Positions 1,152 to 13,700 of a stretch of 64,000 bases of DNA are shown in pieces (within the stretch, counting starts at the first letter, position 1; the number at the start of each line of letters is the position of its first letter). The translations under genes were made by a program, and so were the position numbers. The notes below the pieces were generated by a model. The model saw only the letters and a list, made by a program, of their open reading frames with translations. It did not search any database and had not been told where the DNA came from. The stretch is from the human T2T-CHM13v2.0 reference genome, Homo sapiens, in NCBI RefSeq assembly GCF_009914755.1, contig NC_060943.1; one strand, written 5' to 3'.

Positions 1152-4100
1152 TCAATTCCCACCTATGAGTGAGAATATGCAGTGTTTGGTTTTTTGTTCT
1201 TGTGATAGTTTACTGAGAATGATGATTTCCAATTTCATCCATGTCCCTACAAAGGACATGAACTCATCATTTTTTATGGCTGCATAGTATTCCATGGTGT
1301 ATATGTGCCACATTTTCTTCATTCAGTCTATCATTTTTGGACATTTGGGTGGGTTCCAAGTCTTTGCTATTGTGAATAATGTCACAATAAACATACGTTT
1401 CCATGTGTCTTTATAGCAGCATGATTTATAGTCTTTTGGGTATTACCCAGTAATGGGATGGCTGGGTCAAATGGTATTTCTAGTTCTAGATCCCTGAGGA
1501 ATCGCCACACTGACTTCCACAATGGTTGAACTAGTTGACAGTCCCACCAACAGTGTAAAAGTGTTCCTATTTCTCCACATCCTCTCCAGCATCTGTTGTT
1601 TCCTGACTTTTTACTGATTGCCATTCTAACTGGTGTGATATGGTATCTCATTGTGGTTTGATTTGCATTTCTCTGATGACCAGTGATGATGAGCAGTTTT
1701 TCATGTGGTTTTTGGCTGCATAACTGTCTTCTTTTGAGAAGTGTCTGTTCATGTCTTTTGCCCAGTTTTTGATGGCGTTGTTTGTTTTTTTCTTGTAAAT
1801 TTGTTTGAGTTCATTGTAGATTCTGGACATTAGCCCTTTGTCAGATGAGTAGGTTGCGAAAATTTTCTCATATTTTGTAGGTTGCCTGTTCACTCTGATG
1901 GTAGTTTCTTTTGCTGTGCAGAAGCTCTTTAGTTTAATTAGATCCCATTTGTCAATTTTGGCTTTTGCTGCCATTGCTTTTGGTATTTTAGCCATGAAGT
2001 TCTTGCCCATGCCTATGTCCTGAGTGGTAATGCCTAGGTTTTCTTCTAGGGTTTTTATGGTTTTAGGTCGGACGTTTAAGTCTTCAATCCATCTTGAATT
2101 AATTTTTGTATAAGGTGTAAGGAAGGGATCCAGTTTCAGCTTTCTACATATGGCTAGCCAGTTTTCCCAGCACCATTTATTAAATAGGGAATCCTTTCCC
2201 CATTGCTTGTTTTTCTCAGGTTTGTCAAAGATCAGATAGTTGTAGATATGCAGCATTATTTCTGAGGGCTCTGTTCTGTTCTATTGATCTATATCTCTGT
2301 TTTGGTTCCAGTACCATGCTGTTTTGGTTACTGTAGCCTTGTAGTATAGTTTGAAGTCAGGTAGCGTGATGCCTCCAGCTTTGTTCTTTTGGCTTAGGAT
2401 TGACTTGGTGATGCGGGCTCTTTTTTTGTTCCATATGAACTTTAAAGTAGTTTTTTCCAATTCTGTGAAGGCATTGGTAGCTTGATGGGGATGGCATTGA
2501 ATCTGTAAATTACCTTGGGCAGTATGGCCATTTTCATGATATTGATTCTTCCTACCCATGAGCATGGAATGTTCTTCCATTTGTTTGTATCCTCTTTTAT
2601 TTCACTGAGCAGAGGTTTGTAGTTCTCCTTGAAGAGGTCCTTCACATCCCTTGTAAGTTGGATTCCTAGGTATTTTATTCTCTTTGAAGCAATTGTGAAT
2701 GGGAGTTCAGTCATGATTTGGCTCTCTGTCTGTTGTTGGTGTATAAGAATGCTTGTGATTTTTATACATTGATTTTGTATCCTGAGACTTTGCTGAAGTT
2801 GCTTGTCAGCTGAAGGAGATTTTTGACTGAGACAATGAGATTTTCTAGATATACAATCATGTCTTCTGCAAACAGGCACAATTTGACTTCCTCTTTCCTA
2901 ATTGAATACCCTTTATTTCCTTCTGCTGCCTAATTGCCCTGGCCAGAACTTCCAACACTTTGTTGAATAAGAGTGGTGAGAGAGGGCATCCCTGTCTTGT
3001 GCCGGTTTTCAAAGGGAATGATTCCAGTTTTTGCCCATTCAGTATGATATTGGCTGTGGGTTTGTCATAGATAGCTCTTATTATTTTGAGATACATGTCA
3101 TCAATACCTAATTTACTGAGAGTTTTTAGCATGAAGGGTTGTTCAATTTTGTCAAAGGCCTTTTCTGCATCTATTGAGATAATCATGTGGTTTTTTTCTT
3201 TGGTTCTGTTTATATGCTGGATTAGATGTATTGATTTTCATATATTGAACCAGCCTTGCATCCCAGGGATGAAGCCCACTTGATCATGGTGGATAAGCTT
3301 TTTGATGTGCTGCTGGATTCGTTTTGCCAGTATTTTATTGAGGATTTTTGCATCAATGTTCATCAAGGATATTGGTCTAAAATTCTCTTTTTTCATTGTG
3401 TCTCTACCCGGCTTTGGTATCAGGATGATGCTGGCCTCATAAAATGAGTTAGGGAGGATTCCCTCTTTTTTATCGATTGGAATAGTTTCAGAAGGAATGG
3501 TACCAGTTCCTCCTTGTACCTCTGGTAGAATTCGGCTGTAAATCCATCTGGTCCTGGACTCTTTTTGGTTGGTAAGCTATTGATTATTGCCACAATTTCA
3601 GATCCTGTTATTGGTCTATTCAGAGATTCAACTTCTTCCTGATTTAGTCTTGGGAGAGTGTATGTGTCGAGGAATGTATCCATTTCTTCTAGATTTTCTA
3701 GTTTATTTGTGTAGAGGTGTTTATAGTATTCTCTGATGGTAGTTTGTATTTCTGTGTGATTGGTGGTGATATCCCCTTTATCAGTTTTTATTGTGTCTAT
3801 TTGATTCTTTTCTTTTTTCTTCCTTATTAGTCTTGCTAGCGGTCTATCTACTTTGTTGATCCTTTCATAAAAACAGCTCCTGGATTCGTTAATTTTTTGA
3901 AGGGTTTTTTTGTGTCTCTATTTCCTTCAGTTCTGCTCTGATTTTAGTTATTTCTTGCCTTCTGCTAGCTTTTGAATGTGTTTGCTCTTGCTTTTCTAGT
4001 TCTTTTAATTGTGATGTTCGGGTGTCAATTTTGGATCTTTCCTGCTTTCTCTTGTGGGCATTTAGTGCTATAAATTTCCCTCTACACACTGCTTTGAATG

Positions 4101-10745: not shown

Positions 10746-13700
10746 ATGACAGGATCAAATTCACACATAACAATATTAACTTTAAATGTAAATGGACTAA
10801 ATGCTCCAATTAAAAGACACAGACTGGCAAGTTGGACAAAGAGTCAAGACCCATCACTGTGCAGTATTCAGGAAACCCATCTCACGTGCAGAGACACACA
10901 TAGGCTCAAAATAAAAGGATGGAGGAAGATCTACCAAGCAAATGGAAAACAAAAAAAGGCAGGGGTTGCAATCCTAGTCTCTGATAAAACAGACTTTAAA
11001 TCAACAAAGATTAAAAGAGACAAAGAAGGCCATTACATAATGGTAAAGGGATCAATTCAACAAGAAGAGCTAACTATCCTAAATATATATGCACCCAATA
11101 CAGGAGCACCCAGATTCATAAAGCAAGTGCTTAGTGACCTACAAAGAGACTTAGACTCCCACACATTAATAATGGGAGAATTTAACACCCCACTGTCAAC
11201 ATTAGACAGATCAACAAGACAGAAAGTCCACAGGGATACCCAGGAATTGAACTCATCTCTGCACCAAGCGGACCTAATAGACATATACATAACTCTCCAC
11301 CACAAATCAATAGAAAATACATTTTTTTCAGCACCACACCACACCTATTCCAAAATTGACCACATAGTGGGAAGTAAAGCTCTCCTCAGCAAATGGAAAA
11401 GAACAGAAATTATAACAAACTATCTCTCAGACCACAGTGCAATCAAACTAGAACTCAGGATTAAGAATCTCAGTCAAAACCACTCAACTACATGGAAACT
11501 GAACACCCTGCTCCTGAATGACTACTGGGTACATAACGAAATGAAGGCAAAAATAAAGATGTTCTTTGAAACCAACGAGAACAAAGACACAACATACCAG
11601 AATCTCTGGGACACATTCAAAGCAGTGTGTAGAGGGAGATTTATAGCACTAAATGCCCACAAGAGAAAGCAGGAAAGATCCAAAATTGACACCTGAACAT
11701 CACAATTAAAAGAACTAGAAAAGCTAGAGCAAACACATTCAAAAGCTAGCAGAAGGCAAGAAATAACTAAAATCAGAGCAGAACTGAAGGAAATGAAGAC
11801 ACAAAAAACCCTTCAAAAAATTAACGAATCCAGGAGCTGGTTTTTTGAAAGGATCAACAAAGTTGATAGACCGCTAGCAAGACTAATAAAGAAAAAAAGA
11901 GAGAAGAATCAAATAGACACAATAAAAAATGATAAAGGGGATATCACCACCGATCCCACAGAAACACAAACTACCACCAGGGAATACTACAAAAACCTCT
12001 ACACAAATAAACTAGAGAATCTAGAAGAGATGGATACATTCCTGGACACATACACTCTCCCAAGACTAAACCAGGAAGAAGTTGAATCTCTGAATAGACC
12101 AATAACAGGATCTGAAATTGTGGCAATAATCAATAGCTTACCAACCAAAAAGAGTCCAGGACCAGATGGATTCACAGCCGAATTCTACCAGAGGTACAAG
12201 GAAGAAATGGTACCATTCCTTCTGAAACTATTCCAATCAATAGAAAAAGAGGGAATCCTCCCTAACTCATTTTATGAGGCCAGCATCATTCTGATACCAA
12301 AGCCAGGCAGAGAAACAACAAAAAAAGAGAATTTTAGACCAATATCCTTGAAGAACATTGATGGAAAAATCCTCAATAAAATACTGGCAAAACGAATCCA
12401 GCAGCACATCAAAAAGCTTATCCACCATGATCAAGTGGGCTTCATCCCTGGGATGCAAGGCTGGTTCAATATATGAAAATCAATAAATGTAATCCAGCAT
12501 ATCAACAGAGCCAAAGACAAAAACCACATGATTATCTCAATAGATGCAGAAAAAGGCTTTAACAAAATTGAACAACCCTTCATGCTAAAAACTCTCAATA
12601 AATTAGGTATTGATGGGACGTATTTCAAAATAATAAGAGCTATCTATGACAAACCCACAGCCAGTATCATACTTAATGGGCAAAAACTGGAAGCATTCCC
12701 TTTGAAAACTGGCACAAGACAGGGATGTCCTCTCTCACCACTCCTATTCAACATAGTGTTGGAAGTTCTGGCCAGGGCAATTAGGCAGGAGAAGGAAATA
12801 AAGGGTATTCAATTAGGAAAAGAGGAAGTCAAATTTTTCCTGTTTGCAGACGACATGATTGTATATCTAGAAAACCCCATTGTCTTGGCCCAAATTCTCC
12901 TTAAGTTGATAAGCAACTTCAGCAAAGTCTCAGGATACAAAATCAATGTACAAAAATTGCAAGCATTCTTATACACCAACAACAGAGAAACAGAGAGCCA
13001 AATCATGACTGAACTCCCATTCACAATTGCTTCAAAGAGAATAAAATACCTAGGAATCCAACTTACAAGGGATGTGAAGGACCTCTTCAAGGAGAACTAC
13101 AAACCACTGCTCAAGGAAATAAAAGAGGATACAAACAAATGGAAGAACATTCCATGCTCATGGGTAGGAAGAATCAATATCGTGAAAATGGCCATACTGA
13201 CCAAGGTAATTTACAGATTCAATGCCATCCCCATCAAGCTACCAATGCCTTCACAGAATTGGAAAAAACTACTTTAAAGTTCATATGGAACCAAAAAGGA
13301 GCCCGCATCGCCAAGTCAATCCTAAGCCAAAAGAACAAAGCTGGAGGCATCACACTACCTGACTTCAAACTATACTACAAGGCTACAGTAACGAAAACAG
13401 CATGGTACTGGTATCAAAACAGAGATATAGATCAATGGAACAGAACAGAGCCCTCAGAAATAACGCCGCATATGTACAACTATCTGATCTTTGACAAACC
13501 TGAGAAAAACAAGCAATGGGGAAAGGATTCCCTATTTAATAAATGGTGCTGGGAAAACTGGCTAGCCATATGTAGAAAGCTGAAACTGGATCCCTTCCTT
13601 ACACCTTATACAAAAATCAATTCAAGATGGATTAAAGAGTTAAACATTAGACCTAAAACCATAAAAACCCTAGAAGAAAACCTAGGCATTACCATTCAGG

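What the first reader, a model, noticed from the sequence alone, without database searches (positions are those of the whole stretch)
2461..13260. Inverted pair L1-A/L1-B share ORF2 nonsense and frameshift lesions over a ~3-kb internal tract
Seen: both have AATATATGAAAATC (TGA in the RT domain; 3238-3240 and 12474-12476). Both have the 4-bp deletion CCAATGCC----TTCACAG (~2468, ~13250), where L1-C and L1-D have CCAATGCCTTTCTTCACAG. Both also carry MGEFN, NSSLH, LHHKS, NLSQN, KIEQP and IMTEL, which L1-C lacks. Their ends differ: the L1-A 3'UTR has GAGAACAC/GAACATCAC and the L1-B 3'UTR has GAGATCAC/GAATATCAC. Inference: a multi-kb gene conversion between the arms of a 6-kb inverted repeat only 1.8 kb apart, without crossover (spacer orientation and the L1-A TSD are intact). 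Alternatively, a doubly dead master RNA was mobilised in trans.
Basis: partly seen in the sequence, partly recalled or inferred. Interest (0 to 1): 0.75.

Follow-up and report, generated by a model that had tools for sequence, protein, structure and literature searches.

The report
Patchy gene conversion between inverted L1s
Two old, dead L1 retrotransposons lying head-to-head in chromosome 19 centromere-flanking satellite DNA have swapped several short stretches of sequence, including two gene-breaking mutations, which is an ordinary, well-known process caught here in unusually clear detail.

Summary
The sequence facts hold. L1-A (926-6958, minus) and L1-B (8772-14803, plus) share an in-frame TGA inside the RT domain and a 4-bp frameshift deletion. 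L1-C and L1-D lack both.

The proposed ~3-kb conversion tract does not exist. The whole inverted pair has a paralogue on chr5 (A' 98.6% identical to A, B' 98.3% to B, same 1813-bp spacer). That copy works as a built-in control:
The cross-chromosome pairs give 94.8-94.9%. 82 arm-specific differences survive in the tract, 37 of them between the two lesions.
- B, B' and A carry TGA; A' does not. The deletion is in A and B only, and genome-wide it occurs only there.
- Each lesion sits in its own short patch, at most 133 bp and 95 bp.

The real large tracts lie elsewhere, in the ORF1 3' half and inter-ORF spacer (B 10023-10772). They comprise a 573-bp perfect A'=B' run on chr5 and a 278-bp A=B run on chr19.

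Best reading: repeated short-tract, non-crossover gene conversion between two independently inserted L1s, before and after the chr5/chr19 duplication. A trans-mobilised dead master is refuted. This is a known kind of event and of modest interest.

The parts
926..6958 (-). L1-A. Full-length L1PA-type element with a poly-A tail at 926-937. Its ORF2 carries 5 in-frame stops and 7 frameshifting indels.
   Evidence: BLAST 915-6944 against B gives 94.3%. Ends were read.
916..925 (-). 3' copy of the L1-A target-site duplication (GAAAAGTTAA in the sense strand). The 5' copy is at 6959-6968 (GAAAATTTAA); 9 of 10 bases match.
   Evidence: Read directly. The alpha-monomer phase overlaps by about 10 bp across the insertion.
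6959..8771 (+). 1813-bp alpha-satellite spacer between the two L1 5' ends. It has the same orientation as the flanking satellite and the same length on chr5.
   Evidence: An alpha probe gave 261 plus-strand HSPs and 0 minus-strand.
8772..14803 (+). L1-B. It starts 13 nt inside the L1 5' end seen in A, and an A-rich tail runs to about 14840. There is no recognisable target-site duplication. Its ORF2 carries 3 stops and 1 frameshift.
12474..12476 (+). In-frame TGA in L1-B ORF2, inside the RT domain. It is also present in the chr5 paralogue B'.
3238..3240 (-). The same TGA in L1-A. It is absent (TGC) from the chr5 paralogue A'.
   Evidence: 0 of 28 panel copies carry it.
12353..12485 (+). Largest possible conversion patch around the TGA (133 bp; A 3361-3229). 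It is bounded by retained arm differences at B 12352 and B 12486.
13201..13291 (+). Largest possible conversion patch around the 4-bp deletion, whose junction is at B 13248-13250 (A 2518-2428). The patch spans 95 alignment columns and is bounded by retained arm differences at B 13200 and B 13292.
   Evidence: The deletion is in A and B only. It is absent from A', B', C, D and 28 of 28 panel copies.
10023..10772 (+). 750-bp block with no retained arm difference (A 5691-4942). It covers the ORF1 trimerisation end, the RRM-like and C-terminal domains and the inter-ORF spacer. It contains the 278-bp perfect A=B run (B 10276-10553) and the position of the 573-bp perfect A'=B' run on chr5 (equivalent to B 10023-10595).
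   Evidence: 36.5 arm differences expected, 0 seen, Poisson P = 1.4e-16.
36326..42415 (+). L1-C. An independent full-length insertion with its own 16-bp target-site duplication (1 mismatch). It lacks both lesions and was used as a local comparison copy.
   Evidence: It has its own chr5 paralogue.
45190..47328 (.). L1-D. A 5'-truncated and internally inverted copy: 45190-46273 is minus strand and 46275-47328 is plus strand. It lacks the deletion.

Best explanation
L1-A and L1-B are two separate L1PA insertions, head-to-head and 1813 bp apart, in uniformly oriented monomeric alpha satellite. They differ by about 5.5% overall, and by about 13% in the first 300 bp of the 5'UTR.

Because they are close and inverted, they have repeatedly served as repair templates for one another. 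The result is non-reciprocal, non-crossover gene conversion in short and sometimes mosaic patches of tens to a few hundred bp. A later duplication of at least 41 kb placed a copy of the locus on chr5, and that copy lets the events be ordered.

1. Before the duplication, B acquired the TGA. A few single-variant patches (for example the MGEFN and KIEQP codons) became shared by both arms.
2. After the duplication, on chr19:
   - the TGA was copied from B into A within a patch of at most 133 bp;
   - the 4-bp deletion arose in one arm and was copied to the other within at most 95 bp (direction unknown);
   - about 0.1-0.5 kb at the ORF1 3' end and ORF2 start was homogenised in both directions.
3. 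After the duplication, on chr5, an independent tract of at least 573 bp copied A' into B' in the same ORF1 region.

Shown: the order of events, the patch bounds, and the absence of a continuous tract. Inferred: the molecular route (double-strand-break repair or synthesis-dependent strand annealing with short or patch-repaired heteroduplex), and the idea that the ORF1 block is favoured because it offered the longest uninterrupted identity between the arms.
For: Paralogue:
- B' (L050) is 98.2% identical to B over the full length. Its flanks match B's at 110 of 112 bases and 97.2% of 177 bases, against a background of at most 89%.
- The A 5' junction 41-mer occurs exactly twice in the genome, on chr19 and chr5. 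The same is true of the C junction.
- A-A' is 98.64% and B-B' 98.29%. All four A-type versus B-type pairs are 92.8-93.1%.

Lesions:
- TGA is in A, B and B' but not A'. The deletion is in A and B but not A' or B'.
- 0 of 28 panel copies have either lesion.
- The deletion 24-mer occurs 2 times genome-wide against 827 undeleted copies.
- Retained arm differences bracket each lesion, and 37 of them lie between the two lesions.

Incongruence within the L1 body:
- Same-chromosome sharing (AB|A'B') occupies 11 columns, which is 8 events. Cross-chromosome sharing (AB'|A'B) occupies 1 column. My one-sided binomial gives P = 0.02.
- At 20 sites, three copies share a state rare in the panel while the fourth keeps the majority state: 19 plus the TGA. 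My estimate of the chance expectation is about 1-2.5.
- These sites cluster, for example 7 within 56 bp and 2 within 19 bp.

Runs of perfect identity:
- A'=B' for 573 bp and A=B for 278 bp. Neither length was reached in any of 2000 random placements of the differences.
- The 750-bp block has 0 retained arm differences against 36.5 expected.

Independent insertion:
- Alpha satellite gave 261 plus-strand HSPs and 0 minus-strand.
- A has a target-site duplication and a different 5' end from B.

Literature: non-allelic conversion has a mean tract of about 250 bp in humans (10.1101/135152, abstract and passages read). It is elevated between transposable-element copies less than 10 kb apart (PMC6598467 and PMC8230782, passages read).
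Against: - For a single site such as the TGA, conversion cannot be told from a parallel C-to-A change in A, or from a back-mutation in A'. There is no second marker inside the 133-bp window. My odds of about 15:1 for conversion rest on estimated rates, not on a test.
- The same-chromosome versus cross-chromosome count is only 6 to 1 if the three chr5 sites inside the 573-bp tract are counted as one event (P about 0.06).
- Three or four of the 20 '3+1' sites are CpG sites, where parallel decay is plausible (cols 2133, 3137, 3269).
- The 28-copy panel was picked as the best-scoring relatives of B 12300-13400, out of 40 candidates scored from 7469. It is therefore biased toward B-like, near-majority copies.
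- For L1 positions before about 2030, only 8 or fewer copies cover each site.
- A, B and C are all 96-99% alike in the ORF1 block. Part of the low divergence there may therefore predate the events described, or may involve C.
- No ape or other human assembly was available.
Confidence: 0.82

Rival explanations
1. On each chromosome there was one long recombination intermediate: a heteroduplex of about 3 kb spanning B ~10020-13290. Patchy mismatch repair then left discontinuous converted patches. On this view the reader's multi-kb event is real but mostly restored.
For: All post-duplication signals on chr19 fall between B 10276 and B 13253 (cols 1719-2215, 2274, 2659, 2699, 2745, 3920, 4693). 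None lies in the 5' 1.26 kb or the 3' 1.5 kb. Inside B 10596-10694 the homogenised chr19 sequence is a mosaic of A-type and B-type alleles.
Against: Chr5 signals and pre-duplication shared variants (cols 1031-4172) occupy much the same span, so several events at different times are needed in any case. 82 arm differences survive inside the span. Nothing ties the patches to one event.
Confidence: 0.1
2. One reading: a single continuous multi-kb (~3 kb) gene-conversion tract homogenised the internal part of A and B.
For: The shared TGA, the shared deletion and six shared peptide motifs spread over about 2.1 kb.
Against: A-B identity in that span is 95.18%, against 94.75-94.94% for the cross-chromosome pairs. 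82 arm-specific differences are retained. The longest A=B run in that span is 121 bp, with P = 0.24 under a random-placement null. Dispersed copies are closer to B (96-98%) than A is. The six motifs have three different distributions across A, A', B and B'.
Confidence: 0.02
3. A doubly dead L1 source RNA carrying both lesions was mobilised in trans and gave rise to both A and B.
For: 23 other dispersed copies carry the TGA 24-mer.
Against: - The deletion in this sequence context is found only in A and B.
- B' has TGA but no deletion, and A' has neither. The lesions therefore arrived after insertion.
- No coordinate in the TGA list lies within 100 bp of one in the KIEQP list, apart from A, B and B'.
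- TGA occurs in about 2% of copies (25 against 1230), which fits recurrent mutation.
- A and B differ in 5'UTR type, 5' end, and 10 ORF2 lesions in A plus 2 in B that are not shared.
Confidence: 0.01
4. The two lesions arose twice independently: parallel slippage deletion in CTTTCTTC and a parallel C-to-A change.
For: The same 4-bp deletion recurs in 13 old copies with ATGAC context that are 91-94% identical to one another. The TGA is seen in 25 copies.
Against: The deletion frequency in this context is 2 of 829, and both copies are in this pair. Both lesions in both neighbours, after the chr5 split, has a joint chance of order 1e-6 or less by my arithmetic. The surrounding locus shows independent and strong conversion signals. 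Parallel origin of the TGA alone remains possible, at about 10%.
Confidence: 0.03
5. Assembly or polishing artefact: reads from one arm were used to correct the other in T2T-CHM13.
For: None from the calls. It is listed because the region is satellite-embedded and duplicated.
Against: The arms are only 94.5% identical and keep 258 fixed differences, with retained arm differences 44-49 bp either side of the deletion and 10 bp downstream of the TGA. A mis-polish limited to a 4-bp indel in both arms, and not in either chr5 copy, is unlikely.
Confidence: 0.02

Closest known systems
Non-allelic (interlocus) gene conversion between nearby transposable-element copies. It is described genome-wide for Alu, with elevated rates within 10 kb (Aleshin & Zhi 2010, as cited in PMC6598467 and PMC8230782, passages read).
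   Same: Short non-reciprocal transfers between neighbouring, diverged copies of one family. The copies share non-diagnostic (private) mutations. The rate depends on distance and identity.
   Different: Here the copies are 6-kb L1s of different subtype in inverted orientation. The events are ordered by a paralogous chr5 copy rather than by orthologues. Two of the transferred variants are inactivating lesions.
Interlocus gene conversion in human segmental duplications and duplicate genes (PMC3790853 and PMC4467073, search listing only; 10.1101/135152, abstract and passages read: mean tract 250 bp, conversion slows as the copies diverge).
   Same: Tract sizes of at most 95 bp, at most 133 bp, 278 bp and 573 bp fit the reported distribution. 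At about 5.5% divergence the arms have largely escaped homogenisation, as that model predicts.
   Different: The repeat is made of two independent insertions, not a duplication.
Arm-to-arm gene conversion in large palindromes such as those on the Y chromosome (recalled; PMC11168930 seen only in a search listing).
   Same: An inverted repeat with a short spacer, and intrachromosomal non-crossover exchange between the arms.
   Different: Palindrome arms are kept above 99.9% identical along their whole length (recalled). These arms are 94.5% identical with 258 fixed differences. This is therefore not concerted evolution of a palindrome.

Membership tests
Non-allelic gene conversion (non-crossover) between inverted repeats | Derived variants are shared by the two local copies but absent from the sister copy of each, so the local pattern conflicts with the tree. 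| tested here: met
   The tree is ((A,A'),(B,B')) at 98.3-98.6% against 92.8-93.1%. The deletion is in A and B only. AB|A'B' gives 8 events against 1 for AB'|A'B.
Non-allelic gene conversion (non-crossover) between inverted repeats | Transferred tracts are bounded by retained paralogue-specific differences, and runs of identity are longer than chance allows. | tested here: met
   Bounds of 133 and 95 bp. Runs of 573 and 278 bp, each reached in 0 of 2000 random placements.
Non-allelic gene conversion (non-crossover) between inverted repeats | No associated crossover: the spacer is not inverted. | tested here: met
   The spacer ends next to A and B match those next to A' and B'. The spacer is 1813 bp on both chromosomes. 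The alpha satellite is uniformly plus-strand. Only 112 and 151 bp of the chr5 spacer were read.
Non-allelic gene conversion (non-crossover) between inverted repeats | The donor is unchanged (non-reciprocal transfer). | tested here: inconclusive
   For the TGA, B and B' both keep it, so the donor is unchanged. For the deletion, the direction cannot be told.
Full-length L1 (LINE-1) insertion | ORF1 domains, ORF2 endonuclease and reverse transcriptase, a poly-A tail, and a target-site duplication. | tested here: met
   Pfam finds Tnp_22_trimer, Transposase_22, Tnp_22_dsRBD, Exo_endo_phos and RVT_1 in B. A and C have poly-A tails and target-site duplications. B has a poly-A tail but no recognisable target-site duplication. 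No subfamily name was assigned, because no repeat library was at hand.
Concerted evolution of a palindrome | Near-identity of the arms along their whole length. | tested here: not met
   A-B is 94.55% over the L1 body with 258 fixed arm differences. The flanking satellite is not inverted.
Trans-mobilised defective L1 lineage | Several dispersed copies with unrelated flanks carry the same inactivating lesions. | tested here: not met
   The deletion 24-mer occurs 2 times in the genome, both here. No other copy combines TGA with the KIEQP variant.

The most novel reading that the evidence does not exclude
The ORF1 3' half and inter-ORF spacer of L1 may be a preferred initiation site for exchange between neighbouring L1s. 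The two paralogous loci (chr19 and chr5) independently converted overlapping tracts there after they separated. All smaller patches, on both chromosomes and before the split, lie within the central ~3.2 kb. This could reflect one long heteroduplex per event with patchy repair. If general, nearby L1 pairs would spread inactivating (or, in young elements, activating) variants locally, and would distort divergence-based L1 ages in satellite-rich regions.
Probability: 0.2. Interest if true: 0.45.

Novelty: new member of a known kind. Interest (0 to 1): 0.3.

Why it matters
- The locus is a clean, internally controlled example of short-tract gene conversion between two L1s of different subtype. The chr5 paralogue plays the part of an outgroup, so events can be ordered and bounded to within about 100 bp.
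- It shows that shared 'diagnostic-looking' lesions in neighbouring repeats need not mean a common source element or a long tract.
- It shows that arms about 5.5% diverged still exchange patches without being homogenised.
- For repeat annotation and dating in T2T pericentromeres, it is a caution: local conversion can move private mutations between adjacent elements.
- It does not change what is known about the mechanism.

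Tried and rejected
- **Three-way comparison of A, B and C**. It gave a near-star pattern (AB|C 165, AC|B 122, BC|A 196) and could not resolve the question. The chr5 paralogues were needed.
- **16-kb DNA query against the genome**. Only 13 of 64,482 candidates were scored, and neither the query locus itself nor chr5 was among them. It was useless for finding the paralogue, so junction 41-mers were used instead.
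- **Fetching the 3 chrX TGA copies and a second panel**. As a result only 20 of the 23 other TGA copies were fetched, and 15 of those were used. Five were dropped as rearranged or fragmentary, or as being B' itself: L044, L050, L055, L059, L062. L005 and L010 were also dropped as rearranged.
- **Origin by inverted segmental duplication.** Rejected: the satellite is uniformly oriented, and the 5' ends and target-site duplications differ.
- **Reciprocal double crossover (segment swap).** Rejected: only 1 AB'|A'B site was found.
- **CGA-to-TGA CpG decay as the origin of the shared TGA.** Rejected: the common state is TGC (1230 copies; 28 of 28 panel copies have C).
- **A PRDM9-type 13-mer** (degenerate motif recalled from memory) **as the cause of the ORF1 block.** It was found only in the 3'UTRs of B and C, at 14630 and 42192, and not in the block.
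- **Literature.** Four full-text searches found general work on interlocus and transposable-element gene conversion, and on chr1/5/19 alpha satellite (PMC2853522, listing only). None of the papers they listed is about this locus. I do not claim that none exists.

Full report
**What is in the window**

The window is monomeric alpha satellite, all in one orientation. A 342-bp satellite probe gave 261 plus-strand HSPs and none on the minus strand. Four L1 insertions interrupt it:
- L1-A, 926-6958, minus strand.
- L1-B, 8772-14803, plus strand, with an A-rich tail to about 14840.
- L1-C, 36326-42415, plus strand.
- L1-D, a 5'-truncated, internally inverted copy at 45190-47328.

A and B lie head-to-head with a 1813-bp satellite spacer between their 5' ends.

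A and B look like separate insertions:
- A begins with the G-rich L1 5' end and has a 10-bp target-site duplication with one mismatch (916-925 and 6959-6968).
- B begins 13 nt further into L1, at the same L1 nucleotide as C.
- B has no recognisable target-site duplication. The satellite monomer phase shows a gap of a few bases rather than an overlap.
- Their 5'UTRs are only 86-87% identical, whereas B is about 93% identical there to C and to three dispersed full-length copies.
- Because the flanking and spacer satellite is not inverted, the pair is not an inverted duplication of one element.

**Checking the observation**

- The TGA is in frame: C has TGC there, reading N-I-C-K-S.
- The TGA interrupts Pfam RVT_1 between profile positions 48 and 55.
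- The 4-bp deletion lies about 60 codons after the end of the RVT_1 match. It is shared by A and B and absent from C and D.

Genome-wide counts:

| Pattern | Exact copies in the genome |
|---|---|
| Deleted 24-mer | 2 (A and B only) |
| Undeleted 28-mer | 827 |
| TGA 24-mer | 25 |
| TGC 24-mer | 1230 |

With up to 2 mismatches, the deleted pattern finds only 13 further copies. All 13 have a different neighbouring base (ATGAC). The eight of them examined are old, and are 91-94% identical to one another.

Neither lesion is a family trait, and their joint presence in two neighbours is not chance.

**Why the three-way comparison misleads**

A, B and C are almost equidistant:
- A-B is 93.5%, A-C 92.5% and B-C 94.2% with gaps counted.
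- Site patterns are AB|C 165, AC|B 122 and BC|A 196.

A 1.1-kb query spanning both lesions in B found dispersed copies at 96-98% identity. A was not among the 40 best-scored of 7469 candidates. Whatever links A and B is therefore local and small.

**The chr5 paralogue**

The best hit of that query was a chr5 copy, which I call B'.
- B' is 98.2% identical to B over all 6032 bp.
- Its flanks match B's: 110 of 112 bases on the 5' side and 97.2% of 177 bases on the 3' side. Other monomers in the window match at no more than 89%.
- A 41-mer across A's 5' junction occurs exactly twice in the genome, on chr19 and at chr5:50,655,030. This places an A paralogue (A') 1813 bp from B', the same spacing as on chr19.
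- C's 5' junction is likewise found only on chr19 and at chr5:50,626,171. The duplicated segment is therefore at least 41 kb and is inverted between the chromosomes.

I fetched A'. In a five-way alignment with 100-bp flanks:
- A-A' is 98.64% and B-B' is 98.29%.
- A-B is 93.13%, A-B' 93.08%, A'-B 92.76% and A'-B' 92.86%.

The tree ((A,A'),(B,B')) is unambiguous. A is no closer to its neighbour B than to B' on another chromosome.

**The two lesions**

| Lesion | A | A' | B | B' | Panel copies carrying it |
|---|---|---|---|---|---|
| TGA | yes | no (TGC) | yes | yes | 0 of 28 |
| 4-bp deletion | yes | no | yes | no | 0 of 28 |

(States; panel counts.)

- The TGA was in B before the duplication and reached A afterwards.
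- The deletion arose on chr19 after the duplication and is now in both arms.
- Arm-specific differences conserved in both paralogues (A=A' differing from B=B') bracket each lesion. For the TGA they lie at B 12352 and B 12486, a window of 133 bp. For the deletion they lie at B 13200 and B 13292, a window of 95 alignment columns.
- Between the two lesions, 37 such differences survive. A-B identity there is 94.52%, exactly equal to A-B'.

There is no multi-kb tract. The lesions travelled in two separate short patches.

The six peptide motifs fall into three classes:
- MGEFN, KIEQP and IMTEL are in all four copies. Panel frequencies are 0 of 25 copies with the MGEFN variant base, 0 of 28 with the KIEQP variant base, and 3 of 28 with the IMTEL motif.
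- LHHKS and NLSQN are in A, B and B' but not A'.
- NSSLH is in A and B only.

They do not share one history.

**Evidence that conversion, not coincidence, is at work**

Within the L1 body (6051 columns):
- 258 columns are congruent arm differences.
- 166 are single-lineage changes.
- 11 columns show same-chromosome sharing, AB|A'B'. These are 7 substitutions plus the deletion, so 8 events.
- 1 column shows cross-chromosome sharing, AB'|A'B.

Random parallel mutation predicts equal numbers of the two incongruent patterns. My one-sided binomial for 8 against 1 gives P = 0.02. It gives about 0.06 if three linked chr5 sites are merged into one event.

At 20 further sites, three copies share a state that is rare in the panel while the fourth keeps the majority state. 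Nineteen come and the TGA. This is what one expects if one arm's private variant was copied into its neighbour. From the lineage rates I estimate 1-2.5 such sites by chance. Three or four of them are CpG sites and should be discounted.

The sites cluster. Seven A-type variants within 56 bp (B 10220-10275) are present in A, A' and B' but not in B.

Eight variants are shared by all four copies but absent from C and from every covering panel copy. The MGEFN 28-mer occurs in 20 copies genome-wide and the KIEQP 23-mer in 10. No locus other than this one and its chr5 paralogue appears in both lists. These point to older exchanges that predate the duplication.

**Where the large tracts are**

- From B 10023 to B 10772 there is not one retained arm difference. 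The density elsewhere predicts 36.5, giving Poisson P = 1.4e-16.
- On chr5, A' and B' are identical for 573 bp, the equivalent of B 10023-10595.
- On chr19, A and B are identical for 278 bp (B 10276-10553), and differ at only 3 positions from B 10276 to B 10772.
- Neither run length was reached in 2000 random placements of the observed differences.
- If A' and B' had merely been alike at the time of the split, about 8 differences should have accumulated in 573 bp by my arithmetic. None has, so the chr5 tract is recent.
- In B 10596-10694, A' and B' differ at 10 sites where A equals B. The chr19 sequence there carries A-type alleles at some of these sites and B-type alleles at others. So chr19 was homogenised independently, and in both directions.
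- The block covers the ORF1 trimerisation end, the RRM-like and C-terminal domains and the inter-ORF spacer. It stops where the ORF2 endonuclease domain begins.

A caveat applies. A, B and C are all 96-99% alike in this block, and B-C share a 190-bp identical run with P = 0.007. Some of the similarity may be older, or may involve C.

**State of the elements**

Using panel-occupied columns as a frame ruler, ORF2 lesions are as follows:

| Copy | In-frame stops | Frameshifting indels |
|---|---|---|
| A | 5 | 7 |
| A' | 3 | 8 |
| B | 3 | 1 |
| B' | 3 | 0 |
| C | 4 | 3 |

- Only the TGA and the 4-bp deletion are common to A and B.
- A further stop at B 11694, at a CpG site, is in A', B and B' but not in A. 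It mirrors the TGA pattern on the other chromosome.
- This inventory alone excludes a common 'doubly dead' source.

**Mechanism**

Shown:
- The insertions were independent.
- The order of events relative to the duplication.
- Non-reciprocal sharing confined to short patches.
- No inversion of the spacer.
- Recurrence on both chromosomes.

Inferred:
- Breaks in one arm were repaired from the other arm 1.8 kb away, by synthesis-dependent strand annealing or by short or patch-repaired heteroduplex.
- The ORF1 block is favoured because it offered the longest uninterrupted identity between two otherwise roughly 5-13% diverged elements.

Literature context:
- The tract sizes fit the roughly 250-bp mean estimated for human non-allelic conversion. 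That work also reports that conversion slows as copies diverge (10.1101/135152, abstract and passages read).
- The setting fits the raised conversion rate between transposable-element copies less than 10 kb apart (PMC6598467 and PMC8230782, passages read).
- Chromosomes 1, 5 and 19 are known to share alpha-satellite families (PMC2853522, title and abstract in a search listing only).

The A-A' and B-B' divergences of 1.4-1.7% are of the order of human-chimpanzee divergence. On recalled rates, this suggests a duplication several million years old. I did not test this.

**Verdict**

- The alternative of a trans-mobilised dead master is refuted.
- The finding is a well-resolved instance of a known process.

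Noticed in passing
Whole window; chr5 places: The region from L1-A to L1-C (at least 41 kb) has an inverted paralogue at about chr5:50,626,000-50,661,000. L1 identity is 98.3-98.6%, the three L1 junctions tested are identical or near-identical (A and C exact; B flank 110/112), and the A-B spacer is the same 1813 bp.
   Followed up: partly
window 10227-10416 and 36326-42415 (L1-C): B and C, 27 kb apart and in direct orientation, share a 190-bp identical run in the ORF1 block (P = 0.007). A, B and C are all 96-99% alike there, against about 93-94% elsewhere. A, A', B, B' and C also share 8 variants that the covering panel copies almost always lack. C may take part in the exchanges.
   Followed up: partly
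window 8772 and 36326: L1-B and L1-C start at exactly the same L1 nucleotide (AAGATGGCC...), 13 nt inside the 5' end seen in L1-A. Both sit at the same phase of the alpha monomer on their 5' side. C has a clean target-site duplication. B has none, and its target shows a gap of about 6 bp.
   Followed up: partly
window 14803-14840: The L1-B tail is A-rich, then carries a 19-nt unique insert (CAACCCATTTTCTGGGGAG), then a second A run. The insert is also present in B' on chr5. It may be a short 3' transduction or filler.
   Followed up: no
window 11694-11696 (B); A 4020: A stop at a CpG site is present in A', B and B' but not in A. This is either parallel CpG decay or a B'-to-A' conversion on chr5.
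   Followed up: partly
G000:C23:55728128 (-) and 55731861 (+): Two chrX L1 copies in opposite orientation, 3.7 kb apart, both carry the rare MGEFN variant 28-mer, which occurs in 20 copies genome-wide. This may be another inverted L1 pair or palindrome with exchange.
   Followed up: no
L003-L012: Thirteen dispersed, old L1 copies carry the same 4-bp deletion in an ATGAC context. The eight examined are 91-94% identical to one another. This is either a slippage-prone site or an old minor lineage.
   Followed up: partly
window 45190-47328: L1-D has the structure expected of twin priming. Its 3' part is on the minus strand (45190-46273) and abuts an inverted internal part on the plus strand (46275-47328).
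   Followed up: no
window 14630-14642 and 42192-42204: The only matches in the window to the recalled PRDM9-type 13-mer lie in the G-rich 3'UTR tracts of B and C (minus strand), not in any conversion tract.
   Followed up: yes
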